Shown: positions 10,485-40,066, counted from the stretch's first letter. The stretch is DNA of 40,927 nucleotides from a virus (IMGVR_UViG_3300030207_003081:1-40927); one strand, 5' to 3'. A program made the numbers and translations. Notes: a model not told the origin generated them from the sequence alone.

Positions 10485-11486
10485 TTATTCATTTGTTAAT
10501 TCCTCAAATGCTTTCATCAAATTAGTAGCAGTGCATTTCTCCCAAACATAAAATTGTTTGGGGCTGGAAAACTCATAACGCTCCCCTTTCTTTACGCCGA
10601 GGAGGCGCTCCTGTCCCTCGATACCCTCGTGCTCGATTACCTTTGGCAAGGCATCGACCGGTACGAAGCAGGCATATTTTGTATCTGGAATAAAAAAACT
10701 GAGAGCAGCGGCTGCACCGTTGTGCGAGAGTGAGGCGACCGCTCGCTGATACAGCGCTGCCCTCAGTTCTAAGTTGACCGGGCCGGGGAGGTACGGGACA
10801 GCCGGGTCATCTTTATAGTACTCGGGTGGGGCGATAGTTGCAACATCTGTATCGTGCAACATCACAGGAAAATATCCACGCTCTTTTAATTGTTTAGAAA
10901 AGCGAGAGAAGCTAGATAGATTACTGTTACGCTCTCCCTCTACTTGGCTCTGCCTAATAGTTAACGTGACCAGCTTCGACCGGTCGATGTCATTAGCGTC
11001 TAACCATTTATCTACATAATGTAAGGCGCCCTCTGGGGCCTGCATCACCACCGGTGTGATACCTTTGTCCTTCACCTGATTGTATATCTCGACCACCTGT
11101 TGCAGCATAAACGCGCCGACGGGCTGGTTGATGTGATATGTGTTGGGGAAAAGGATTGCCGGCGGCAGCATGGAAATCTCCTTCGCTGCCTCTGCCCTGT
11201 TCATGTAAATTGACACACCCTTGCACGCGGGGATCATCCATGCCATGGGCGTCAGGATCTGCCGCACCCGCCACAGTTTCTCGGCCTGTGACAGGGCCAT
11301 GTCCTTCGGCGTCTGTTGCCGAAAAGATTCGCCGGGGCCCAAGATAAAAATAAAGTGTAGTTCACTTAGATTGTTCGCCCTCCGAGCCATGTCGGCATTG
11401 ACCATCGAGTGCATGTGGTCAAAAGTACAAGGGCTAATAGCTAAATCAATAATCGCGTAAAGAGTATTATTTCCTTGGTGTAGCAC
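10485..11486 (-). CDS. Putative glycosyltransferase-like protein
   Basis: GTG start at 11486 with GCAGGAGG RBS; VTLTIR...RNSN and LELRAALY..A blocks resemble the C-terminal half of GT-B-like proteins; operonic with sugar aminotransferase. Confidence 0.45.
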   Translation of the reverse strand: MLHQGNNTLYAIIDLAISPCTFDHMHSMVNADMARRANNLSELHFIFILGPGESFRQQTPKDMALSQAEKLWRVRQILTPMAWMIPACKGVSIYMNRAEAAKEISMLPPAILFPNTYHINQPVGAFMLQQVVEIYNQVKDKGITPVVMQAPEGALHYVDKWLDANDIDRSKLVTLTIRQSQVEGERNSNLSSFSRFSKQLKERGYFPVMLHDTDVATIAPPEYYKDDPAVPYLPGPVNLELRAALYQRAVASLSHNGAAAALSFFIPDTKYACFVPVDALPKVIEHEGIEGQERLLGVKKGERYEFSSPKQFYVWEKCTATNLMKAFEELTNE

Positions 11487-12684
11487 GCAGATCCTCCTGC
11501 ATCTCAGTCTCTGTTTCTTTGATGGCATTCACGATGCGGCGCACATGCCATATGTCATATTTTTCATTTAGAAAAAGATTGAATGTGCTGTCGCGCGTGT
11601 GCCTCGCGTTTGGACTACGGGCAGCCCACGGCACATGCCCCTCGCTAAACGCGTGGTTGGGCTGCCAGTTCACCTGCTTTTCTATATGAAGCCAGTCGGC
11701 CACGAGACAGCCGTAGTGTTCAAGCAACGGGATGCCTTTTGTTTTTAGACGCATGGCAAATCCCATCTTGTCCCTGACCGGCACCCACACGGGTATATAG
11801 AAGGGAGCATACCCGCTGTGGAACTCTTGCAGTTCGCTTAGGCATCCTGCCATCTGCATCTTTTCACGTAAACTGTACAGAAACATGAGGCGATCTAGGT
11901 TAGTTCGCTTCAATCTCTTCAAGGATGCTGAGGCGATAGCGCTCTCCCACTCATTGAAGTTGTGATTTAACGCCGGAAAAAGGGCCGTCCCTGGATCGTT
12001 CTGGTTGATGTCGTCGCGCCAGGGCTGCTTGCCGCGATCTCGGTGCGCCATAACCTGCTTCATTAAGTCAGGGCTAACGCCATAAACAAAGCCACCGCTG
12101 CCGCCGCATTGCAAGTTCTTGCGATACATCATCGAACCTGCCGCAAGTGTGCCAAAAGAACCGACCAACCTGCCGTCGATGTTAGCGCCCATCGCTTGAC
12201 TGATATCTTCGATTAGCGGGATGGCACCGTTTTCACATAGTTTAGCGATAGCCTCTGTGTCTGCGACCGGCTCACCGGCTGTGTGTACCAGCATCACAGC
12301 GGCTGTAAGATCAGTGACACAGTCCGTGACCTGATCTAGGCCAGTGTTGTAGCCACCGGGTGCGGCATCTGCTACGACAGGCACGAGCCCTGCGGCCAAG
12401 ATTGCATGCACCGTGCCGCTGTCGGTGACGGGAGATACGATTATCTCTCGCCCCTGTTTTAGATTCAACGCACACAAGGCTATGTAGAGTGCGTTTGTGC
12501 CGCTGTTGACGGCAGCAGCCTCGCCCTTGCCGTAGAAGGCCGCCAGATCTTTCTCAAATTGTTTTTGGAAAAACCCATTGTAGCCTGGGTCTTCGTCACT
12601 GCGCCGATAGTAGGACACCACATCGTCGATAGCATCTTGCTCGTCTTCACCAAAGGCTTTGCGTGGCGGAAACTCACCAGTCAT
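11467..12684 (-). CDS. DegT/DnrJ/EryC1/StrS family PLP-dependent sugar aminotransferase
   Basis: AAAVNSGTNAL..AL, MLVHTAG, IEDISQAMGA, GSFG, S...KNL..G.GG (PLP lysine). Confidence 0.92.
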   Translation of the reverse strand: MTGEFPPRKAFGEDEQDAIDDVVSYYRRSDEDPGYNGFFQKQFEKDLAAFYGKGEAAAVNSGTNALYIALCALNLKQGREIIVSPVTDSGTVHAILAAGLVPVVADAAPGGYNTGLDQVTDCVTDLTAAVMLVHTAGEPVADTEAIAKLCENGAIPLIEDISQAMGANIDGRLVGSFGTLAAGSMMYRKNLQCGGSGGFVYGVSPDLMKQVMAHRDRGKQPWRDDINQNDPGTALFPALNHNFNEWESAIASASLKRLKRTNLDRLMFLYSLREKMQMAGCLSELQEFHSGYAPFYIPVWVPVRDKMGFAMRLKTKGIPLLEHYGCLVADWLHIEKQVNWQPNHAFSEGHVPWAARSPNARHTRDSTFNLFLNEKYDIWHVRRIVNAIKETETEMQEDLRATPRK

Positions 12685-13294
12685 TGAGGTTCTCCCCTGC
12701 GAGTTTGACGAGGGCAATAGGCGTGTCCCATCGGTCAGGGAACTGGCGCATCAATTCCTCTGACTGCGCACGGTTTTTGTACGGATCATGCCCCAGCGGC
12801 TCTTGGTCAAACGGCTGGCAGTCACATGCCTCGACGCGTTCCCACGTGCGTTGAAACAGTTGCTCTGCACGTCGCAGCAAGTGCGAGTAAAACGTCTGTA
12901 AAGTTTCAGCGGGGTTTGCCAGGCGCCACTCTCGCTCCCACCTCGGCATAAACTCTACATCAAGTAGCTTGCCTGTATCTATGCCAGGGTCGATAAGATG
13001 CACCGACACACCTATCGGGTGGCCTTCGTACAGCGCCCACACATTCGGATATATGCCCCGACCCCATGGCAGCGCAGCCGGATGTATATTGATGATGCGC
13101 GCGTGAAAGCTCTGGCAAACGAACTTGCTGAAGATAGGTCCGTAGCCGTTGCTAATTATGTAGTCTGGGTTGATCTGCGAAAAATAACGATCCTCTTTGC
13201 GACCGTCGTCCATCAAAACAGCATGACCCCGCGCCGTTAGCCACAGCGCGAGGCTTTGATTGCGCCACGATGGGCCCATCAACATGATCTTCAT
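12674..13294 (-). CDS. N10-formyl-THF-dependent formyltransferase (sugar N-formyltransferase-like)
   Basis: IINIHPAALPWGRG..P..W and GVSVHLIDPGIDTG motifs. Confidence 0.9.
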   Translation of the reverse strand: MKIMLMGPSWRNQSLALWLTARGHAVLMDDGRKEDRYFSQINPDYIISNGYGPIFSKFVCQSFHARIINIHPAALPWGRGIYPNVWALYEGHPIGVSVHLIDPGIDTGKLLDVEFMPRWEREWRLANPAETLQTFYSHLLRRAEQLFQRTWERVEACDCQPFDQEPLGHDPYKNRAQSEELMRQFPDRWDTPIALVKLAGENLNDW

Positions 13295-19521: not shown

Positions 19522-21603
19522 TCAGTGCATGTCTAGCCAGTTATTTCCAACCTTTTGCTCAATCAAAAGAGGGACATACAGGTCTATATCGAACGTCGTT
19601 TTTATCAGGCGCTCGATGTTTTCCGGGCTCAATAGCTCGTCCAGCAGCAACGTGATCTCGATAATCTCGTCCGGCGGCACGTCAAGCAGCACGCTATCGT
19701 GAACGGTGTTGATAATAAGTGCGCGTCGGTTGTCTGCGCGCAGCGCGTCACGCAAGTGGATCAGGCAGGCGGGCACGAAGCAGGCCGTGGCAACAGACTG
19801 GCAGGGATAGTTTTTGATTTTCGTGGACCCAGATGCCCCACCTGACGGCGTGCGCTTGGCATCCGGGAACGCAAACTCCCGGCCCGTCGGTAATTTAATT
19901 AGTTTAGTCCGGATTGCTTCGTCTTGCAGCGCGCCATGCCAGCGCCGTATCCCTTCGTACTTGTCCACGAAGTGCATGTTGTACGCACGCTCTGCCGGTG
20001 TGCCGCTCACGCTGCCGTACAGTGGCGCGAACGTGCGCGACTTAGCCTCCTGCCTCGTGGTCGGCTGCCCGTTCGTGGTTAGATAGTCAGCGGTGTACTG
20101 GTGTACATCAAACCCGGTAAGAATCTCGTGCTTCGCAGTCTCATCCTGTGCCAGGTGCGCCGCGACGCGGAACTCTAACTGGGCAAAGTCGAACTCGATA
20201 AGCTGACCCTCGGCAAACCGAGACACGAATGCTTTCTTCACAGGGAAGGTGCCTGCCCTCGGCATGTTCTGTAGGTTTGGGCTCGATGACGACAGCCTAC
20301 CGGTCGCCGTGCGGCACTGGTTGAACTCTGCGTAAAGGTAGCCGTCGAGCATACGTTTGTGGATGCCCTCGACAAAACTACTTAAATAAGTGTCCAGTGC
20401 CCCGAGCCTCTCCACCTTTTTAATAAAGGACAGCGCCTCCTCAAACTTCATGTTTGGGCGCGCCTGCATCACGCTCTCTAGCTGCCGAGCTAAAGATTGC
20501 AGGCGGTTCTTGTCCGTGCTGAACCCGCCGGCGGTGGCCCACTGGCTGTTGGGTGGGTTAATTTTGAACCCTGCCAGTGTCGGGGTCGCCTGGTATCGGG
20601 TGCCCACGCCCCCGCACTCTGCGCACGTCTGCCCTCGCTTGTACTTTGTGCCGTCCTTGCGGGTTTTAAATATCTTGCCGGTTCCGTCACAAGCGGTGCA
20701 GTGAACCGCGAACGTGCGATACACCGGCTCGCATTGCTGGCGCAGGTATTGTTTGTACTTGCTCTCCGACATCTTGGGGCGGAACGGTCTATCTAATTGA
20801 AAAAACCTGGCGTGTTGCTGCTTAGATTTAGGCCGCCGGCTATACAGGATCTGACTAAGCTGTTCAGGCGATGCCAGATTGTACGGCATGTCGCCCATGA
20901 CATGGCTCACGATCTCGCGCAGGTCTTGTTCGAGCACGGCCTTCTCTTCGCGGAACTCGCGCTCGACCCGCAGCAATGTGCCTGCGTCAATTCGCATCCC
21001 TGCGTAGCACATTTCCGCGAGACACATCGTGAATTTACATGTAAGCAGAAGCGTCCTGTGCAGGGGTTCACCCATATAGTCAGCTAGTTGCGCAAGGTAC
21101 AGGTCCGTCGTAGCGCGCAGGTCTTGCTTGCCATATTCCTCGACAACTTCCCAGGGCATGGCCTCGTAACCGATACCCTTGTTGAAATATTCCTTGGTAG
21201 CGTCGGACTTTTGTTCACTTAGATTACGCCTTTCACATGACGCGGCTAGTGACATAGGCATGCGACGGCCTCGGGCCAGCAGATACTCACCCACCATAGT
21301 GTCATGTATTTCGCCATGATAATCGATACCCACGGCCCAGATCCATTGCAGGTCGAACTGCGCATTATGCATGACGAGCAGGCTGGCCTCTTGTTCAATC
21401 AGCCGCTTCACCTCGTTAAAACCATCAGCATCCACGGGCTTTTCTACGTGATTTACGGGCACGTACCAAATATCTTTAGTGTCGATATCCTGTAGGCCAA
21501 TAGAAACTATGTAGTTTTTAGGGTTCTGCGGCCTATTATCTACAGCCCGGCTCCCTAGCCATTCGACAGTCGTTTCTACGTCAAGTGTGAATCGTCTAGT
21601 CAT
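19522..21603 (-). CDS. DNA polymerase family A with 3'-5' exonuclease and DnaJ-like Zn insertion
   Basis: DVET (ExoI), HNAQFDL, TGRLSSS.PNLQN, DFAQLEFR (motif A), RQEAKSRTFAPLYG (motif B), VHDS (motif C); CxxCxGxG twice. Confidence 0.95.
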   Translation of the reverse strand: MTRRFTLDVETTVEWLGSRAVDNRPQNPKNYIVSIGLQDIDTKDIWYVPVNHVEKPVDADGFNEVKRLIEQEASLLVMHNAQFDLQWIWAVGIDYHGEIHDTMVGEYLLARGRRMPMSLAASCERRNLSEQKSDATKEYFNKGIGYEAMPWEVVEEYGKQDLRATTDLYLAQLADYMGEPLHRTLLLTCKFTMCLAEMCYAGMRIDAGTLLRVEREFREEKAVLEQDLREIVSHVMGDMPYNLASPEQLSQILYSRRPKSKQQHARFFQLDRPFRPKMSESKYKQYLRQQCEPVYRTFAVHCTACDGTGKIFKTRKDGTKYKRGQTCAECGGVGTRYQATPTLAGFKINPPNSQWATAGGFSTDKNRLQSLARQLESVMQARPNMKFEEALSFIKKVERLGALDTYLSSFVEGIHKRMLDGYLYAEFNQCRTATGRLSSSSPNLQNMPRAGTFPVKKAFVSRFAEGQLIEFDFAQLEFRVAAHLAQDETAKHEILTGFDVHQYTADYLTTNGQPTTRQEAKSRTFAPLYGSVSGTPAERAYNMHFVDKYEGIRRWHGALQDEAIRTKLIKLPTGREFAFPDAKRTPSGGASGSTKIKNYPCQSVATACFVPACLIHLRDALRADNRRALIINTVHDSVLLDVPPDEIIEITLLLDELLSPENIERLIKTTFDIDLYVPLLIEQKVGNNWLDMH

Positions 21604-24683: not shown

Positions 24684-25532
24684 TTACGCCGCTAATGCAA
24701 GTTGGAAACGCTCGCTCGCTGCCCACTGCGCGACATCAAAGGACCGGCGGTGCAGCCGTTCAACGGTGTTGTCGTTAGAAGTGCGACGCAACACACTGCC
24801 GTTGCGGTCATCCGCGTAGGTCGCCCAATTTGTCCACGTGTTGTAAAGAGCGAAGGCGTTATCGCCCCACTGATCCCGATGGTCGTGATAGCTAGACAAG
24901 ATAGCCTCCGCCTGCACATCGTTAGCGGATAACTCCCTCACGATCTGCTCGCCATGCGCCTCAAGCATCGGGCTGTTGGCCATGCGACGTAGCATGTCAA
25001 TTTGTTTAGAAAATCCATCATGGGCCTCGTCGATGGTTTCTACGAAGTTTTCCATGCTGAAATTTTTCGTGTTTTTACGCCGCAAACGGGTAATGTCCTC
25101 GCCCAGAACCATCGTGTTCAGGCACCACATCAAAATGGATCCGCTCACGAAATTGTTAGAGGTCAGCCCGTCGACTCCGTGCCATGCGAGTGCCTTGAAC
25201 TGCACCTCGCTAGAACGCCGGGCCGTTTCGACAGTGCTGGTAATGTGCGGAAACACGTACTCTCGCAAGGCCCACGCGCCGTGCCTACTAACCCATGTCC
25301 GCTGTTGGCTGTGACCTAAGCGGCCCTCTATCGCCTCGGTAATCGGGTGAAAAAACTGCGCGTGACTTACCTGTGCCTGGTTTCGCCCAACGATACCCAA
25401 CACGTCGCCTGTGTAGCTGTTGATGACGTAGTCTTTTTTGGCGAAGCGAGTTGGTTCCCGATGGATCGGGAAGTTATATTCATCGGCTGCTGCTTCCATG
25501 GCCTCACCGCCATGACCAAAACTAATTTTCAT
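24684..25532 (-). CDS. DUF932/DUF945-like phage/plasmid protein
   Basis: AGGAGG RBS before MKISF; T..VLGIVG, HGVDG, CLNTM, AFALYN..T.WAT pattern. Confidence 0.75.
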   Translation of the reverse strand: MKISFGHGGEAMEAAADEYNFPIHREPTRFAKKDYVINSYTGDVLGIVGRNQAQVSHAQFFHPITEAIEGRLGHSQQRTWVSRHGAWALREYVFPHITSTVETARRSSEVQFKALAWHGVDGLTSNNFVSGSILMWCLNTMVLGEDITRLRRKNTKNFSMENFVETIDEAHDGFSKQIDMLRRMANSPMLEAHGEQIVRELSANDVQAEAILSSYHDHRDQWGDNAFALYNTWTNWATYADDRNGSVLRRTSNDNTVERLHRRSFDVAQWAASERFQLALAA

Positions 25533-25570
25533 TTCGTACCTCCTACGTTTGGATATCTGGTGACTTATCA

Positions 25571-25650
25571 TCATCAGGCACCCGTTTCAAACATTTATTT
25601 TAGGTAGCGGGGTGCCCCATACAAATAGCACGCGGTTTTGTAGGCCACCT
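25571..25650 (-). ncRNA. Possible pseudoknotted RNA element ending in CUGAUGA
   Basis: Three complementary pairings, two of which cross; same gene-junction position as the hammerheads but no complete core. Confidence 0.3.
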
Positions 25651-25652
25651 TA

Positions 25653-25985
25653 TTAATTTAAATGGGAAGGTGCTGGATCTGTGCCGTTGAACAATGTGAA
25701 TATCCAGCCTATCGCGGTTTTAGCGGAGGACGCCTGGTGCCCATCATAGTTGTATAGGAAATCAACCATCTCCCCGAGCATATCCTGCGCGGGATCATCG
25801 CAGAAAATCCACGTGCTGTGATTATCGCGCCTGATAAAATCCTCGGCGGTTTCGATGCTCAATTCGCCAAATCGTTCGGAGTCGAATCCGGCCTTATCGA
25901 CAGCGTCTAAATATTCGCCGTCAGACCAGGCGATCCAGGCGCTAGCGTCGCCCCGGTGCGGTATCTCTAAGATGACTCGGATCAT
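25653..25985 (-). CDS. Early hypothetical protein
   Basis: 110 aa, AGGA RBS just 3' of the hammerhead at 26010-26071. Confidence 0.7.
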   Translation of the reverse strand: MIRVILEIPHRGDASAWIAWSDGEYLDAVDKAGFDSERFGELSIETAEDFIRRDNHSTWIFCDDPAQDMLGEMVDFLYNYDGHQASSAKTAIGWIFTLFNGTDPAPSHLN

Positions 25986-26009: not shown

Positions 26010-26071
26010 TGCGCTAGCTCATCAGGCCGGGTTTGCGCAGGGCCCGGCGACGCCCCGCAGGGCGTTTCGCT
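26010..26071 (-). ncRNA. Type II hammerhead ribozyme (canonical CUGAUGA-G core)
   Basis: AGC-GAA-ACGCCC(UGCG)GGGCGU-C^-GCCGGG(CCCUGCGCAAA)CCCGGC-CUGAUGA-GCU-A-GCGCA; predicted cut between 26049 and 26048. Confidence 0.9.
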
Positions 26072-26080
26072 TTATTAATT

Positions 26081-26308
26081 TCATGGTTTCACCCATGAAT
26101 GAAAGGGCAGGCTGGAGCGCAATCGCCAATAATTTGATGTTAGATCCGCCCTTTTTATTTTCCGCCCGCGCCTGCTCAAATCCGCGCGGCCTCCCTTATT
26201 AACTAAACCGGTCCATGCGCTTCCATCGGGCGCGGTGCAGGTTACATAGTCCCCAACAGATACAATCGCAAGAGTCCCGCTGGTAGTCTGCATAGTGACT
26301 CGACTCAT
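26081..26308 (-). CDS. Early hypothetical protein
   Basis: MSRVTMQ start with ATGA overlap on the upstream stop and AAGGA RBS; 75 aa. Confidence 0.65.
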   Translation of the reverse strand: MSRVTMQTTSGTLAIVSVGDYVTCTAPDGSAWTGLVNKGGRADLSRRGRKIKRADLTSNYWRLRSSLPFHSWVKP

Positions 26309-27051
26309 AGCGTTTGTTCCTTTGCTCTGTTGAAATGCCCTTTTCCGGCCCCGTGCGCGTAAATCGCAATGCTTTTCGCTTTCTTTCGTGTGCCAGCGCA
26401 TAAACCGCAATCTGTACATTTCACGCGCGGCGCAGGGCACATGATTTCCCGCCCTTCTACGGGTTTTTCGTGCGGCGCCATGACACGAAAAGTTCTTTCG
26501 CCCTGCGACCATGCGGACCACGCTTCTAATTCCGAGTCGCAGGATCGCATGGTCAAATCGGGGCGGTAATCCGCGCGGGGATTGTTAGCCTGATGCGAGT
26601 AACCGGTAAAACCGCTAGCCTCCGCAATTACATCATCCCATATGTATGAGGGCACCAGCGCGGGATCGCCGTAAGTTCCGAAACGCACCATAGCGCCGCG
26701 CGCGTGCTCTGTTATTTCCCGGCGATCACGGGCCCGCTCATAACCGCCGGCCTTGTAATGCTTCCATACTATTAGAACGCCCTGCTGGATTTGCACATAG
26801 CAGGACCTATTCTTGGCGAAAGTTCTTGTCAAAAAATCCGGATCTAGCGGATCAATCGGCGTGCCCTTGTGGATACAATCGCCGCAGATTGAAATATCCG
26901 CGCCCGTCTTATTCGCTAGGCGCGGATCCATATCGGCAAGCATGATATAAATTTGAACCATATCGCCCGTTTTATCGTTGCGCGCGCTGCGCACCGCAAT
27001 GGCGACAATCCTTGCGCCGTCCTGTAAGGACGGGCCTTCGTAAATAATCAT
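26305..27051 (-). CDS. Cys-rich conserved phage early protein (Gp88/DUF7227-like, possible Fe-S)
   Basis: N.KTGDMVQ, ICGDC, CYV, VRFGTYGDP, GYSHQ, CP....CxxCxxC. Confidence 0.65.
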   Translation of the reverse strand: MIIYEGPSLQDGARIVAIAVRSARNDKTGDMVQIYIMLADMDPRLANKTGADISICGDCIHKGTPIDPLDPDFLTRTFAKNRSCYVQIQQGVLIVWKHYKAGGYERARDRREITEHARGAMVRFGTYGDPALVPSYIWDDVIAEASGFTGYSHQANNPRADYRPDLTMRSCDSELEAWSAWSQGERTFRVMAPHEKPVEGREIMCPAPRVKCTDCGLCAGTRKKAKSIAIYAHGAGKGHFNRAKEQTL

Positions 27052-27072
27052 TTCGGGATCCCCCGTGGTTAT

Positions 27073-27135
27073 TGCGCTAGCATCATCAGGCCGGGTTTGC
27101 GCAGGGCCCGGCGACGCCCCGCAGGGCGTTTCGCT
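27073..27135 (-). ncRNA. Type II hammerhead ribozyme (extra U after A9)
   Basis: Same sequence as 26010 copy plus one U (CUGAUGA-U-GCU); predicted cut between 27113 and 27112. Confidence 0.88.
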
Positions 27136-27145
27136 TTATTAGGTA

Positions 27146-27355
27146 TTATTTCACGGCGCTAATTAATCCGTTGCGCATGGTAACTTCCGCGAAAAATTCC
27201 CGGCCCCCGTTGCCCTGGATTTTTGGCCGATGCGCCACCGGAAAACTACCGTTCTCTTGATATTCCGGCCCAAATGCGCTGGTCTCGGTGTACCGCAGCG
27301 GCTGGCCGATATTCTCTTTCAATTCCTTTTTGGTTTTGTAATGAACAAGCATCAT
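27146..27355 (-). CDS. Early hypothetical protein
   Basis: AAGGAG RBS then MMLVHYKTKKELKENIGQPL.Y.ETS.FG.EY; 69 aa. Confidence 0.8.
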   Translation of the reverse strand: MMLVHYKTKKELKENIGQPLRYTETSAFGPEYQENGSFPVAHRPKIQGNGGREFFAEVTMRNGLISAVK

Positions 27356-27377
27356 AGTCCGACTCCTTCCCGTGGGT

Positions 27378-27440
27378 TGCGCTAGCATCATCAGGCCGGG
27401 TTTGCGCAGGGCCCGGCGACGCCCCGCAGGGCGTTTCGCT
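27378..27440 (-). ncRNA. Type II hammerhead ribozyme (extra U after A9)
   Basis: Identical to the 27073 copy; predicted cut between 27418 and 27417. Confidence 0.88.
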
Positions 27441-27748
27441 TATAGTTGCTCAATATCATCCAATGTCCAATTGAACCGGGCCGGCCCTTTCGCCATCAGC
27501 TTCCGCGCCCGTGGAGTCGTTTCTTTAAGCGTGACTCGGGCGAGCTTGTTTTCGTAATTGGTCATGGCCAAATTAACCATGGCATCGGGCGAAGTGCGAA
27601 AAAGCATGTTCCCGCATTGCATAAAATACATCGGGCCCCCGTTTCTGGTATTTTTTAGACGTTCAACAATGGTGATGCGGCCTTCCGTGACCATGGTCGC
27701 GCGGCGGCGATGTTTACGCGTCGCCTGGATGATGTGTTTATCTGTCAT
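27440..27748 (-). CDS. Early hypothetical protein
   Basis: GAAAGGA RBS then MTDKHII; 102 aa; stop codon overlaps the next ribozyme. Confidence 0.7.
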   Translation of the reverse strand: MTDKHIIQATRKHRRRATMVTEGRITIVERLKNTRNGGPMYFMQCGNMLFRTSPDAMVNLAMTNYENKLARVTLKETTPRARKLMAKGPARFNWTLDDIEQL

Positions 27749-27770
27749 GGCTGGATCCTTTCCCGTGGGT

Positions 27771-27833
27771 TGCGCTAGCATCATCAGGCCGGGTTTGCGC
27801 AGGGCCCGGCGACGCCCCGCAGGGCGTTTCGCT
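27771..27833 (-). ncRNA. Type II hammerhead ribozyme (extra U after A9)
   Basis: Identical to the 27073 and 27378 copies; predicted cut between 27811 and 27810. Confidence 0.88.
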
Positions 27834-28004
27834 TTATGAGCGGTGGCGAGATCTGCGGCGGCCGCATGGTTTGCTTATGAAGCTGAATTGATCGGCGGCG
27901 AGTAAGACGACAACGAGCACCAGGCCGGCGATCAAAGGGACGCCCAGGGCAATGGTCATGAAACCTTGGGGCGTCAATATTTCGGGCGATACGCAATAGT
28001 TCAT
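27834..28004 (-). CDS. Small single-TM early protein
   Basis: GAGGG RBS, MNYCVSPE start, hydrophobic segment IALGVPLIAGLVLVVVLLAA; stop abuts the ribozyme. Confidence 0.6.
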   Translation of the reverse strand: MNYCVSPEILTPQGFMTIALGVPLIAGLVLVVVLLAADQFSFISKPCGRRRSRHRS

Positions 28005-28015
28005 GGCGGCGGCCC

Positions 28016-28252
28016 TCAATATGTGAAATCTGGATAAACAAGAGTCGACGGTTTGAGCTGAATGCTGCGACTAACATCGTCGGCATCAGTGCAGCAGAAA
28101 GACGCCGGGCCAAATGCGTCGCGGGGATTGTAATGTTCGCGGATGTAAACGGTGCGAGCATTTGGTTTACGTATGAAATAGGCGCCCCGTGGCAGTGTGC
28201 GGAGTTCAACCGGTTGATGGGCCCACCGTGGCGCGTCAATATCACGTTGCAT
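28016..28252 (-). CDS. First early gene, hypothetical protein
   Basis: GAAAGGA RBS then MQRDIDAPRW; 78 aa. Confidence 0.7.
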   Translation of the reverse strand: MQRDIDAPRWAHQPVELRTLPRGAYFIRKPNARTVYIREHYNPRDAFGPASFCCTDADDVSRSIQLKPSTLVYPDFTY

Positions 28253-28329: not shown

Positions 28330-28720
28330 TGTGCTGTATCTAATTTCAGCAAAAGGGCCCGGCGCGCCGTAAACCGTCCCCCGTACCGTATGCGGTGGGG
28401 ATATATTGCCCAAAATATGCGGGGCGGTATGGATCCAGGCCGCACCAGGCGAGCACCAGGGCGACAAGGGCCGCCGCAAGGCCGCCGGGCGCCATAATAG
28501 AACCCGCAGCGGGCGCAAATATTGCGCACCCGGTAAGCACCAGGCCGCCACCTCGATCGCAAGGGCCGCCAGGGCCGCCCCCGGCCCCCCGGTGGGTACG
28601 TTATGGAGTGTGCAACGGATTGGGATATAGAGTGTCAACCACTTTTCACGTGGTCTAGGACGGTACACCAGGGCTCCCACATTTTTTGCGCCAGATACAT
28701 GTAGTATTACATGCCGCCCT
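28330..28720. repeat. GC-rich probably non-coding region with short dispersed repeats (candidate genome terminus/origin)
   Basis: GCACCAGG at 28442, 28453, 28537 (ACACCAGG 28665); GGCCGCC at 28469, 28480, 28543, 28564, 28573; lies at the divergence of the two gene arms. Confidence 0.45.
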
Positions 28721-28818: not shown

Positions 28819-28846
28819 TTGTAAAGTGCTTTTTATGTGATAAACT
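28819..28846 (+). promoter_or_regulatory. Sigma70-like promoter TTGTAA-N16-TAAACT with extended -10 TG
   Basis: AT-rich region upstream of the methyltransferase. Confidence 0.5.
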
Positions 28847-28886
28847 AATTTAAATAGGGAGGTGCCGGCAATCCACATAGAAAGAG

Positions 28887-29402
28887 ATGCCCGCTACCAT
28901 GTCTAATAAATATGTAACGAGTGGATACGCTCGGTTTGAAGACGATCATTATCCTACGATAGATCCTAGATGCATGAAAGCGCTGCTATCCGGATGGGAC
29001 ATCCCGTTCCCGGCGCTAGATCCCTTCTGTAGTAGCCCTGAGACAGGCCTAGCGCCTGCCCAGGTAGGTGACCTACGGGATGCGTCTCAGTACCGCTCAG
29101 TGGTCACTAATCCGCCATATGCACGTAATATCGTAAATGATTTAGTTAGCCAGTGCGTAGATAAAGTGAAATCAGGCGATGTAGAGGTCGCTGCGCTTCT
29201 AATGCGATTGCAGTGGGATTGTGCAAAGTCGAGGGTGGCGTTGTTCGAGTCCCCCTTCGCATGTTCTTTGCGGCTGTTGTTCCGGCCATACTGGCTTACG
29301 GAGCGTAAGTCATCACCAATCCATAATTATCAGTGGCTGATATGGGATAATCGATGGGAGGGTCCGCCGACTATTAGGCACATCGGAGTTAGTAATGATT
29401 AA
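28887..29402 (+). CDS. Putative DNA amino (N6-adenine) methyltransferase
   Basis: DDHYPT, LDPFC, VVTNPPY catalytic motif, Y.WLIWD. Confidence 0.75.
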   Translation: MPATMSNKYVTSGYARFEDDHYPTIDPRCMKALLSGWDIPFPALDPFCSSPETGLAPAQVGDLRDASQYRSVVTNPPYARNIVNDLVSQCVDKVKSGDVEVAALLMRLQWDCAKSRVALFESPFACSLRLLFRPYWLTERKSSPIHNYQWLIWDNRWEGPPTIRHIGVSND

Positions 29403-29805
29403 AAATAACTTGACAAATTCACGTAAATTAGTAGAACTATATAGCGAAACAGGAGTGCGCATATTAGAGCGCTTTTACGATACGCTAAAGACGGGTGAAT
29501 TAATCGACCCGGTAAAGTTAGCTTCCAGCGACGTTTATTACATCTGGGTTTACCTGCGTGAGAACATGCCTGGGGGCGGCGAGTTGAAGCTCGGCGATGT
29601 AGTCCGGGCATTGGACTTAGAGGGCCACCTAGATCCCGCTACGGGCATGCTACGCGGCTCCCTAAAGGAAGACGAGTCCCCCGGCGCCTATCTGGAAGTC
29701 GATCTCATGCTACGGGGCTCCCTAGAGGAAGACGAGTCCCCCGGCGCGCCCGATGGACTAGCGGCCACCGTACCTGTTTCTGCGGAGCTTGATGCGGACC
29801 CGTAA
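29395..29805 (+). CDS. Hypothetical protein with C-terminal duplication
   Basis: GGAG RBS; ILERFY...SDVYY block; MLRGSL.EDESPGA twice. Confidence 0.6.
   Translation: MIKNNLTNSRKLVELYSETGVRILERFYDTLKTGELIDPVKLASSDVYYIWVYLRENMPGGGELKLGDVVRALDLEGHLDPATGMLRGSLKEDESPGAYLEVDLMLRGSLEEDESPGAPDGLAATVPVSAELDADP
29410..29440 (+). promoter_or_regulatory. Promoter TTGACA-N16-TAGAACTAT
   Basis: Same spacing and AACTAT tail as promoters at 19426-19456 and 40036-40066. Confidence 0.55.
29646..29747 (+). repeat. 42-bp direct repeat, 60-bp period
   Basis: 29646-29687 vs 29706-29747, 2 mismatches. Confidence 0.9.
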
Positions 29806-39152: not shown

Positions 39153-40028
39153 ATGTCGATGGAAAACGAACACGAACCTTCAGAAACACCTGCGTTGCAG
39201 GGCCACGTTGTACAGGCGAAGCGGCGCTACCGTCGTGCAGCCGATGAAGAACGCGAGCTAGACGAACTAATTAAAGCACGGGAATCAGAACGACAGGGAG
39301 GCGAGGCAGCAGAGCCCGACGACGATACAGAGGGCCTCGATGCTGAAGAGGCAACATTTAAAAAACGATACGGCGACTTGCGCCGGCACTCCCAGAAACT
39401 ACAAGAAGAGCACAAAAAAGAAATTGCGAAGCTGAAGGAGCAGCTTACTTCCGTTTCCTCCCAAGAAATGAAAATGCCTAAAACGCAAGAAGAATTAGAA
39501 GAATGGTCTAAACAGTACCCGGATGTTGCACAGATGGTAGAAACCATCGCGATGAAAAAATCCAAAGAATCTGCTGAAGGCATCGAAAAACAACTTGAAC
39601 AGCTACAAGAAATGCGTCGTGAGGTCGTCCGCGCTAAAGCAGAGCAAGAGCTAAAAGAACTACATCCTGACTATGAAAAAATCAGACAGGATCCGGAGTT
39701 TCACGAATGGGCGTCCGTGCAGCCACGCATGATTCAAGAGGCACTGTACGACAATCAAGACGACGCACTGGCGGCTGGCAAAGCGATTACCCTATACAAA
39801 GCAGAGATGAAGGGCCGTAAAAAGAGCCCTCCTCGTACAGAGGCAGCCGAAAGCGTTAGTCCTAAAAGTAAAACCCGCGCTGACGATCAAGCGGGGCAAC
39901 GTATCACGTTTTCTGAATCTATGGTCCGTAAGATGACCGCGCGTGAATACGACAAATACGAAGCCGATATTGAAAAAGCTATTCAAAACGGCACGTTCGA
40001 GTACGACATCAGTGGCGCTGCTCGATAA
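39153..40028 (+). CDS. Capsid scaffolding protein
   Basis: Coiled coil, FKKRYGDLRRH, HPD...I....FH.W, C-terminal F.YDISGAAR; directly before capsid gene. Confidence 0.8.
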   Translation: MSMENEHEPSETPALQGHVVQAKRRYRRAADEERELDELIKARESERQGGEAAEPDDDTEGLDAEEATFKKRYGDLRRHSQKLQEEHKKEIAKLKEQLTSVSSQEMKMPKTQEELEEWSKQYPDVAQMVETIAMKKSKESAEGIEKQLEQLQEMRREVVRAKAEQELKELHPDYEKIRQDPEFHEWASVQPRMIQEALYDNQDDALAAGKAITLYKAEMKGRKKSPPRTEAAESVSPKSKTRADDQAGQRITFSESMVRKMTAREYDKYEADIEKAIQNGTFEYDISGAAR

Positions 40029-40035
40029 AAAGAAC

Positions 40036-40066
40036 TTGACAGTTACAGGTAAATCTATATAACTAT
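40036..40066 (+). promoter_or_regulatory. Capsid promoter TTGACA-N16-TATAACTAT
   Basis: -35 at 40036-40041, -10 at 40058-40063. Confidence 0.75.

What the first reader, a model, noticed from the sequence alone, without database searches (positions are those of the whole stretch)
26010..27833. Array of four type II hammerhead ribozymes punctuating the phage early operon
Seen: four direct repeats at 26010-26071, 27073-27135, 27378-27440 and 27771-27833, identical except for one nucleotide. On the coding (-) strand each reads AGC GAA ACGCCC-UGCG-GGGCGU C^ GCCGGG-CCCUGCGCAAA-CCCGGC CUGAUGA (U) GCU A GCGCA. This gives a full core (CUGAUGA, GAAA, GUC triplet), a 6-bp stem III with a UNCG tetraloop, a 6-bp stem I and an open 3-bp stem II. 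Loop I UGCGC can also pair with the 3' tail GCGCA as a 5-bp pseudoknot. Every copy lies between a stop codon and the next RBS. Known: pseudoknotted type II hammerheads occur in bacterial and phage sequences with mostly unknown roles, and T7 uses host RNase III to split its early mRNA. Inference: this phage splits its early polycistronic mRNA by self-cleavage, independent of host nucleases.
Basis: partly seen in the sequence, partly recalled or inferred. Interest (0 to 1): 0.95.

Follow-up and report, generated by a model that had tools for sequence, protein, structure and literature searches.

The report
Four hammerhead ribozymes punctuating phage operon
A marine phage carries four almost identical hammerhead-type RNA motifs, each placed between one gene's stop codon and the next gene's ribosome-binding site, which likely cut its first long message into gene-sized pieces; this layout has been known in phages since 2011, though copies this alike are uncommon.

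Summary
Four copies (three identical, one lacking a U) match Rfam Hammerhead_II. Each has a full core, 6+6+3-bp stems and a possible 5-bp pseudoknot, and lies 0-10 nt after a stop codon. Contig depth in runs of other studies supports several real copies. The phage is HMO-2011-type, and the array heads its replication arm; 'early' is inferred from position. Best reading: self-cleavage divides the message into five pieces with hairpin-capped ends (0.68, untested). The idea is not new. Perreault 2011 described clustered phage hammerheads, proposed this role and showed cleavage. 28 of 122 viral loci fetched here hold 2-6 such ribozymes, and this scan has noted such arrays on other DNA many times. 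What is particular here: none found in 50 related records, near-perfect copy identity, and an extra U that sits in different copies in different strains. That hints at gene conversion, so the repeats may also serve as recombination sites. Verdict: new member of a known kind, interest 0.3.

The parts
27771..27833 (-). Type II hammerhead copy 1 (extra U after A9); predicted cut after 27811
27378..27440 (-). Type II hammerhead copy 2 (extra U); predicted cut after 27418; first base shared with the e3 stop codon
27073..27135 (-). Type II hammerhead copy 3 (extra U; absent in a related strain, run X14); predicted cut after 27113
26010..26071 (-). Type II hammerhead copy 4 (canonical core, no extra U); predicted cut after 26049; the only copy above the Rfam gathering score
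28295..28322 (-). Putative sigma70-type promoter (TTGC...CTAGAT, alphaproteobacterial style; consensus recalled) ahead of the first gene; inferred
   Evidence: pattern scan; not found by the E. coli-type scan
28016..28252 (-). e1, 78-aa ORF of unknown function, first gene of the arm
   Evidence: no family
27834..28004 (-). e2, 56-aa ORF with a hydrophobic stretch; its stop codon abuts copy 1
27440..27748 (-). e3, 102-aa ORF between copies 1 and 2 (predicted 393-nt piece)
   Evidence: weak phrog_20597 hit
27146..27355 (-). e4, 69-aa ORF between copies 2 and 3 (predicted 305-nt piece); phrog_37117
26305..27051 (-). e5, 248-aa Cys-rich DUF7227/GP88-like protein, first gene of the predicted 1064-nt piece
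26081..26308 (-). e6, 75-aa ORF overlapping the e5 stop; ends 9 nt before copy 4
25653..25985 (-). e7, 110-aa ORF, first gene after copy 4
24684..25532 (-). e8, DUF932-like protein shared with HMO-2011, CRP-1 and CRP-345 (about 30-32% identity); followed by primase, helicase and DNA polymerase
19522..21603 (-). DNA polymerase A with two CXXCXGXG motifs; marks the phage as HMO-2011-type

Best explanation
The four repeats are type II hammerhead ribozyme motifs at gene junctions that likely cut themselves after GUC, and so would divide the phage's presumed early transcript into five separately capped messages. Shown by sequence: full core, stems, pseudoknot pairing, coding-strand orientation, position between stop codon and RBS, and conservation in related strains. 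Inferred: host RNA polymerase transcribes the arm from a promoter near 28.3 kb, and each motif cleaves soon after synthesis, giving pieces e1-e2, e3 (393 nt), e4 (305 nt), e5-e6 (1064 nt) and e7 onward. Because stem II is the open, 3-bp helix, the two halves should part easily and each keeps its own hairpin. The upstream piece would end in the stem III/UGCG hairpin with a cyclic phosphate. The downstream piece would begin with a 5'-OH on a 6-bp all-G-C stem I, about 60 nt ahead of its AUG. The likely gain is insulation and end protection, so that swappable accessory genes are translated and turned over independently of their neighbours, without needing host RNase III for the cut.
For: Rfam RF02276 hits and a descriptor with a shuffle control. 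Both product-end hairpins are the minimum-energy fold in all four contexts. The junction position is typical of the family: 106 of 144 distinct hammerheads from viral loci have a stop within 30 nt and an ATG within 50 nt. The extra U is a common natural variant (41 of 144); 34 of 42 insertion-bearing motifs keep a pseudoknot of 4 bp or more, against a mean of 10.8 with swapped tails. In related strains the ribozyme contigs show 0 differences (X10, X12, X16) or 1 (X14), while flanks differ at 11/538, 19/366, 17/377 and 18/465 sites. One X16 variant changes only loop I and keeps the pseudoknot through a U-G pair (loose end). Three comparable arrays cleaved in vitro and one in E. coli, and 14 of 18 consensus hammerheads tested were active (PMC3088659). 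In E. coli, RNase E's 5' sensor favours monophosphate over hydroxyl ends, and no efficient RNA 5' kinase was seen (PMC4191395 passages).
Against: There is no cleavage assay or RNA end map. The nested-energy model puts the active fold 1.5-3.6 kcal/mol above the minimum locally (48th-81st percentile of the 144 natural motifs) and 4-9 kcal/mol above it in long contexts, with stem I probability near 0 for copies 2 and 3; the pseudoknot is not counted. In copies with the extra U, a 7-bp helix can sequester the GUC triplet. Predicted RBS accessibility does not rise consistently after the cut (up in 1 of 4, flat in 1, down in 2). RNase E also cuts by direct entry whatever the 5' end. Related phages and homologues of the flanked genes do without ribozymes (0 of 50 records; 0 of 8 and 0 of 43 e5-homologue loci), so processing is not required for this gene set. 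A 2019 review calls this role suggested but undefined (PMC6765202).
Confidence: 0.68

Rival explanations
1. The motifs matter mainly, or also, at the DNA level: identical 62-63-nt repeats act as recombination sites that add, drop or reorder accessory gene cassettes (like PeSL cassettes of T4-type phages), each cassette arriving with its own processed 5' end and RBS.
For: Copy identity here is 62-63 of 63 nt, whereas 27 of 28 other multi-hammerhead loci have a best pair at 0.90 or lower. The extra U sits in different copies in different strains: missing from copy 3 in X14, and from the copy before the e3-like gene in X12 and probably X10 (loose ends, piece 3 and depths). That fits gene conversion. 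Relatives of e4 and e5 occur in unrelated phages. PeSL recombination and mini-circles are described in PMC2839356 (abstract only).
Against: No skipped cassette was listed, and the loose ends there match the same neighbours as in the window; contigs broken at a 62-nt repeat cannot show deletion or order, so this is weak either way. Recent duplication alone would also give identical copies. An intact catalytic core is not needed for recombination.
Confidence: 0.13
2. The ribozymes cut, but the effect is to shorten the life of the early message or to uncouple downstream genes, switching the first genes off quickly, as glmS cleavage triggers decay.
For: glmS cleavage leads to degradation (PMC6765202 passage). 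Alphaproteobacteria carry a 5' exonuclease, RNase J (recalled). RNase E direct entry ignores the 5' end.
Against: Both product ends fold into 6-bp G-C-rich hairpins with at most one unpaired terminal base. Copy 4 lies upstream of all the replication genes, whose message the phage needs.
Confidence: 0.1
3. The copies are slow, misfolded or conditionally active, for example switched by a terminating ribosome or by the competing helix that the extra U allows, and most transcripts stay uncut.
For: Alternative folds are lower in energy in the nested model. Stop codons lie within 0-10 nt, so a ribosome would cover stem II. Three copies score just under the Rfam cut-off. 4 of 18 consensus hammerheads were inactive in PMC3088659.
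Against: The energy gap lies within the range of natural motifs and omits the 5-bp pseudoknot. The phage RC1 hammerhead has the same extra U and scores 65 bits. The core is perfect and conserved across strains.
Confidence: 0.07
4. Cut pieces are re-ligated into circular mRNAs, since each internal piece begins with one half and ends with the other half of the same ribozyme; or the stem III hairpin serves as a terminator for antisense transcripts.
For: Identical halves are compatible by sequence. flags terminator-like sites on the plus strand at copies 3 and 4.
Against: Only a 3-bp stem II would hold the halves together. Perreault et al. looked for circular or spliced products and found none. 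The catalytic core reads only on the coding strand, and only 2 of 4 copies have the U-rich tail.
Confidence: 0.03

Closest known systems
Clustered hammerhead ribozymes flanking genes in prophages (Clostridium scindens, Azorhizobium caulinodans, Agrobacterium tumefaciens; Perreault et al. 2011, PMC3088659)
   Same: Several hammerheads flank single genes or short gene blocks of phage operons; processing into gene-length mRNAs was proposed; short stem II and a loop I/3'-tail pseudoknot.
   Different: Here the setting is a marine HMO-2011-type podovirus contig with no integrase found among 57 ORFs scanned (76% complete). The four copies are almost identical, and activity is untested.
Rfam RF02276 Hammerhead_II
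   Same: All four copies align over model positions 1-66, with full core and three stems.
   Different: Three copies carry a U between A9 and stem II and fall 0.1-0.2 bit below the gathering score; that U is common in other viral copies (41 of 144).
RNase III processing of phage T7 early mRNA (recalled, not read here)
   Same: One early transcript cut at gene junctions, leaving structured ends.
   Different: The cut is by a host protein, giving 5'-phosphate and 3'-OH ends; a hammerhead cuts itself and gives 5'-OH and cyclic-phosphate ends.
PeSL cassettes of T4-type phages RB49/phi1 (PMC2839356, abstract)
   Same: Short repeated regulatory elements between non-essential early genes that can recombine.
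   Different: PeSLs are promoter-terminator units; these are ribozymes, and recombination among them is only hinted at.
HMO-2011-type phages (Qin et al. 2022, PMC9038755, passages)
   Same: DNA polymerase with a DnaJ-like insert, primase-helicase-polymerase module, shared DUF932-like gene.
   Different: None of 7 cultured genomes searched has an RF02276 match.

Membership tests
Hammerhead ribozyme, type II (RF02276) | Core C3-U4-G5-A6-N7-G8-A9, G12-A13-A14, A15.1-U16.1 pair and NUH triplet | tested here: met
   CUGAUGA, GAAA and GUC in all four copies
Hammerhead ribozyme, type II (RF02276) | Stems I and III closed by loops, stem II open | tested here: met
   6-bp III, 6-bp I, 3-bp II; III and I form in the product folds
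Hammerhead ribozyme, type II (RF02276) | Loop I / 3'-tail pseudoknot | tested here: met
   5-bp pairing in all four; one strain variant keeps it through a U-G pair (single contig); about 6% by chance alone
Hammerhead ribozyme, type II (RF02276) | Rfam gathering score of 37 bits | tested here: inconclusive
   1 of 4 above (38.4); 3 of 4 at 36.8-36.9, E about 5e-4
Hammerhead ribozyme, type II (RF02276) | Self-cleavage after C17 giving a cyclic phosphate and a 5'-OH | not testable with these tools
   needs an in vitro assay or RNA end mapping
Clustered phage hammerheads (Perreault 2011) | Several hammerheads, same strand, flanking single genes or short blocks in a phage operon | tested here: met
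Clustered phage hammerheads (Perreault 2011) | All sites cleaved in the native polycistronic RNA | not testable with these tools
   no transcript data
HMO-2011-type phage | [quoted passage not shown] | tested here: met
   motifs at residues 302 and 327; weak PF00684 hit; best hits CRP-1, CRP-345 and HMO-2011 at 43-45%; definition
HMO-2011-type phage | Capsid protein and whole-genome phylogeny | not tested
   contig 76% complete; no capsid family among the 57 ORFs scanned; no tree built
PeSL-like recombination cassette | Recombination between copies shuffles or excises genes | tested here: inconclusive
   no skipping joint listed, but contigs break at the repeat; the U indel moves between copies
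PeSL-like recombination cassette | Promoter plus terminator inside the repeat | tested here: not met
   no promoter-like site in any copy, and no terminator-like site on the coding strand

The most novel reading that the evidence does not exclude
The phage has a ribozyme-bounded cassette array. One hammerhead sequence, kept identical by gene conversion, acts both as the RNA cutter that gives each accessory gene its own protected message and as the DNA recombination site through which such genes are gained, lost or excised as mini-circles: a catalytic-RNA counterpart of PeSLs, with a single movable U tuning how fast each copy cuts.
Probability: 0.15. Interest if true: 0.62.

Novelty: new member of a known kind. 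Interest (0 to 1): 0.3.

Why it matters
Why bacterial and phage genomes carry so many self-cleaving ribozymes is an open question (PMC6765202). This array is a clean test object. Four copies differ by one base and sit in four different contexts, so context and the extra U can be tested apart; it fits a 2.3-kb construct, and it recurs in marine samples of several studies. It extends a known layout to an HMO-2011-type phage, a group in which my search found no paper linking it to hammerheads (1 paper, irrelevant mention). It does not by itself answer the question, since the phage is uncultured and its host unknown, and many larger arrays exist. If the repeats also drive cassette exchange, that would link RNA processing to modular genome evolution in phages.

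Tried and rejected
Expression: no RNA holder listed among 24 runs; not used as evidence. Runs with a small share of words were used only after being laid (X14, X16, X12, X10). Exact search for the copy's stem I-loop sequence in viral contigs found 0. The primase query found 1 weak, unrelated locus. L138 and L139 are 100% identical to the window and may be the same source material, so they were not counted as independent. Type I and type III hammerheads: none in the window, in 80 helicase-related loci or in 6 cultured early regions. Rfam on 8 helicase-related loci found 0; on 8 e5-homologue loci plus L124 it gave 2 weak unrelated matches. Assembly artefact rejected on depth ratios. A CRISPR-like or tandem array was rejected: spacers are 240-1000-nt ORF-bearing segments, and the tandem finder reports nothing here. 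No tRNA or tmRNA, so this is not a tRNA-linked ribozyme setting. A fifth hammerhead at 25560-25600 was rejected as a complete ribozyme: only 6 nt lie between GAAAC and CUGAUGA, there is no Rfam hit and the stem III/stem I block is missing in the alignment. Paper searches with no useful result: DUF932 + ribozyme, 0; extra base 'between A9 and G10.1', 0 (tolerance of such a base in a viroid hammerhead is recalled only); RiboJ/RNase E, 1 unread review; HMO-2011-type termini, unhelpful. Families for e1-e7 in NCBIfam and Pfam: nothing above a curated cut-off. No covariance model of my own, structure prediction or tree was built. The supplements of PMC3088659 (Dataset S1) were not opened and may list close marine examples.

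Full report
1. Observation. The repeat finder reports one four-copy family with start-to-start spacings of 1064, 305 and 393 nt. Three copies (27771-27833, 27378-27440, 27073-27135) are identical over 63 nt; the fourth (26010-26071) lacks the U that follows CUGAUGA. A scan of the whole window against Rfam gives 4 matches at E<=1, all Hammerhead_II (RF02276) on the minus strand over the full model: 38.4, 36.9, 36.9 and 36.8 bits against a gathering score of 37. My structure descriptor finds the same 4 and nothing else on either strand, each with a 6-bp stem III, a 6-bp stem I and a 3-bp open stem II. In 100 first-order Markov simulations it gave 6 hits in all and none with 6+6 stems. The upstream stop codons lie 0, -1, 10 and 9 nt from the motif. 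The next AUG is 61-63 nt after the cut, preceded by a Shine-Dalgarno-like purine run (-5.7, -8.9, -8.6 and -3.9 kcal/mol).

2. The copies are real. In run X4, from a study other than the possible source, the ribozyme collapses into a 54-nt contig of depth 66 while the flanking contigs have 14.5-19. In X12 the figures are 279 against 70-78, and in X10 66 against 24-28. Two stored assemblies repeat the window's order, but they are 100% identical to it and may be the same material.

3. The phage. The window is one virus contig, 76% complete. Structural and lysis genes run on the plus strand. A minus-strand arm from about 28.3 kb to 9.9 kb carries small unknown genes, then primase, helicase, DNA polymerase A, exonuclease, endonuclease I and a class II-like ribonucleotide reductase. 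The polymerase's best matches are Roseobacter phages CRP-1 and CRP-345 and HMO-2011 at 43-45%. It has two CXXCXGXG motifs, the defining mark of HMO-2011-type phages (PMC9038755 passages). No RNA polymerase or integrase family was found among the 57 ORFs scanned, but a quarter of the genome is missing. The array heads the replication arm, where cultured relatives also have small variable genes, and a promoter-like site lies at 28322-28295 (consensus recalled). 'Early operon' is thus an inference from position. The flanked genes have no known function: e4 matches phrog_37117 and e5 is DUF7227/GP88-like; both have relatives in unrelated phages.

4. How common is this? A pattern with this stem III and the core found 123 stretches in about a fifth of the viral collection, about 660 by estimate; flanks were fetched for 80 only. 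Of the 122 loci stored, 28 hold 2-6 type II hammerheads (four pairs of these loci overlap or duplicate each other, so about 24 are distinct). Of 144 distinct motifs, 106 have a stop within 30 nt upstream and an ATG within 50 nt downstream. The extra U occurs in 41 of 144. Motifs with an insertion keep a pseudoknot of 4 bp or more in 34 of 42 cases, against a mean of 10.8 (maximum 19) with swapped tails, so the U is a standing variant and not decay. The cultured phage RC1 has one such motif with the same U at a gene junction (65 bits). Within the phage's own kin the array is rare. There is no RF02276 match in 50 records (7 complete cultured HMO-2011-type genomes and 43 of the 80 fragments), while the same search found 5 of 5 positive controls. 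The descriptor found none in all 80 helicase-related loci, 17 of which had 5 kb or more upstream. Homologues of e5 elsewhere have none (0 of 8; 0 of 43 non-identical loci). Most of these records are fragments, so absence is firm only for the 7 complete genomes.

5. Selection and copy identity. In related strains the flanks differ from the window at 11/538, 19/366, 17/377 and 18/465 sites. The listed ribozyme contigs differ at 0 sites in X10, X12 and X16 and at 1 in X14 (4 difference rows and 12 pieces were not shown, and contigs drop rare variants). One X16 contig changes four loop I bases: three unpaired ones, and one that turns the last pseudoknot pair into U-G (one loose end). Copy identity of 62-63 of 63 is unusual: 27 of the 28 multi-hammerhead loci have a best pair at 0.90 or lower. 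The extra U is missing from copy 4 in the window, from copy 3 in X14, and from the copy before the e3-like gene in X12 and probably X10. A one-base indel turning up at different copies suggests gene conversion (inference). No cassette-skipping joint was listed, but contigs that break at a 62-nt repeat cannot show one.

6. Mechanism. Shown: anatomy, position, orientation, conservation. Inferred: transcription by host polymerase, cleavage after GUC, and five pieces (e1-e2; e3, 393 nt; e4, 305 nt; e5-e6, 1064 nt; e7 onward). In type II topology each product keeps a hairpin, and both hairpins are the minimum-energy fold of the product ends in all four contexts. The 3' piece would start with a 5'-OH on a fully paired G. 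In E. coli the RNase E 5' sensor prefers a monophosphate and no efficient 5' kinase was seen, though direct entry is also a major route (PMC4191395 passages). I therefore favour insulation and end protection (0.68). Against it: the nested model ranks the active fold 1.5-3.6 kcal/mol above the minimum locally (48th-81st percentile of natural motifs) and 4-9 kcal/mol above it in long contexts, where stem I of copies 2 and 3 is displaced. The extra U permits a 7-bp helix that buries the GUC triplet, and RBS accessibility does not improve consistently after the cut. These calculations omit the pseudoknot and ribosomes. The rivals are a recombination-cassette role (0.13), cleavage to speed decay (0.10), weak or conditional activity (0.07), and circles or antisense termination (0.03).

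7. What is known. Perreault et al. 2011 (PMC3088659; I read the abstract, sections 6, 8 and 11, and passages; supplements not opened) described type II hammerheads and their pseudoknot. They noted that multiple copies often flank single genes in prophages, proposed processing into operon- or gene-length mRNAs, showed cleavage of three such arrays in vitro and one in E. coli, and found no circles. Reviews repeat the pattern and call the purpose undefined (PMC6155905 passages; PMC6765202 passages). The T7 RNase III comparison is recalled. PeSLs were seen in abstract only (PMC2839356). A search for HMO-2011 with ribozyme returned one paper whose mention concerns introns. The scan's own notes list 247 findings matching the words of my query in at least 212 genomes, among them arrays of 9-17 motifs; these are unchecked leads, and none was on this DNA or a look-alike.

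8. Verdict. These are genuine type II hammerhead motifs in a known layout: a new member of a known kind. Membership is met on every sequence and structure feature I could test, apart from three copies a fraction under the Rfam cut-off; cleavage is untested. The distinctive points are the host lineage, the near-identity of the copies and the mobile U. Interest 0.3. The most novel reading, a ribozyme that doubles as a recombination cassette boundary, has probability 0.15 and would deserve about 0.6.

Noticed in passing
window 25555-25615, minus strand: The intergenic stretch before e8 has both hammerhead core words (GAAAC, then CUGAUGA-U-GAU-A) only 6 nt apart, at the foot of a 7-bp long-loop hairpin. 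There is no Rfam hit. No differences were listed from 25500 to 25603 in four related-strain runs. It may be a deleted hammerhead, a promoter (TTGAAA, 17 nt, TAAGT) or another structured RNA.
   Followed up: partly
window 28887-29402, plus strand: A DNA methyltransferase-like ORF (phrog_799) is skipped in contigs of runs X6 and X8 (joints 28804 or 28842 to 29401): probably an accessory insert.
   Followed up: no
window 29646-29747: A 42-nt direct repeat at 60-nt spacing, 95% alike, inside ORF 29395-29805.
   Followed up: no
window 29400-29440 and 40026-40066: Two similar A+T-rich stretches containing TTGACA on the plus strand, likely promoters of the structural arm (family D9).
   Followed up: no
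window 28400-28630: A G+C-rich non-coding stretch between the divergent arms, with many loose ends at 28595-28609 and raised depth in X8; possibly the genome end or terminal repeat.
   Followed up: no
spacers after copies 1-3 (27748-27770, 27355-27377, 27051-27072): All share CCACGGG just before the RBS, kept in related strains whose spacers otherwise diverge (one variant CCAUGG). Its GGG pairs with stem III's CCC in a predicted inactive fold.
   Followed up: partly
window 26079-26096, minus strand: An extra hairpin sits just upstream of copy 4, at the end of e6.
   Followed up: no
window 11467-13294, minus strand: A DegT/DnrJ-family aminotransferase and a formyltransferase lie side by side at the end of the replication arm, suggesting a sugar or base modification pathway.
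   Followed up: no
L033/L097, L061, L099: Type II hammerheads with 4-bp stem II, short loop I and no pseudoknot, in arrays of up to six.
   Followed up: no
L264:2501-2557 (Rhodobacter phage RC1): A cultured phage with a close type II hammerhead (65 bits) between a DNA-binding protein gene and the next ORF, not annotated in the record; a possible in vivo test system.
   Followed up: partly
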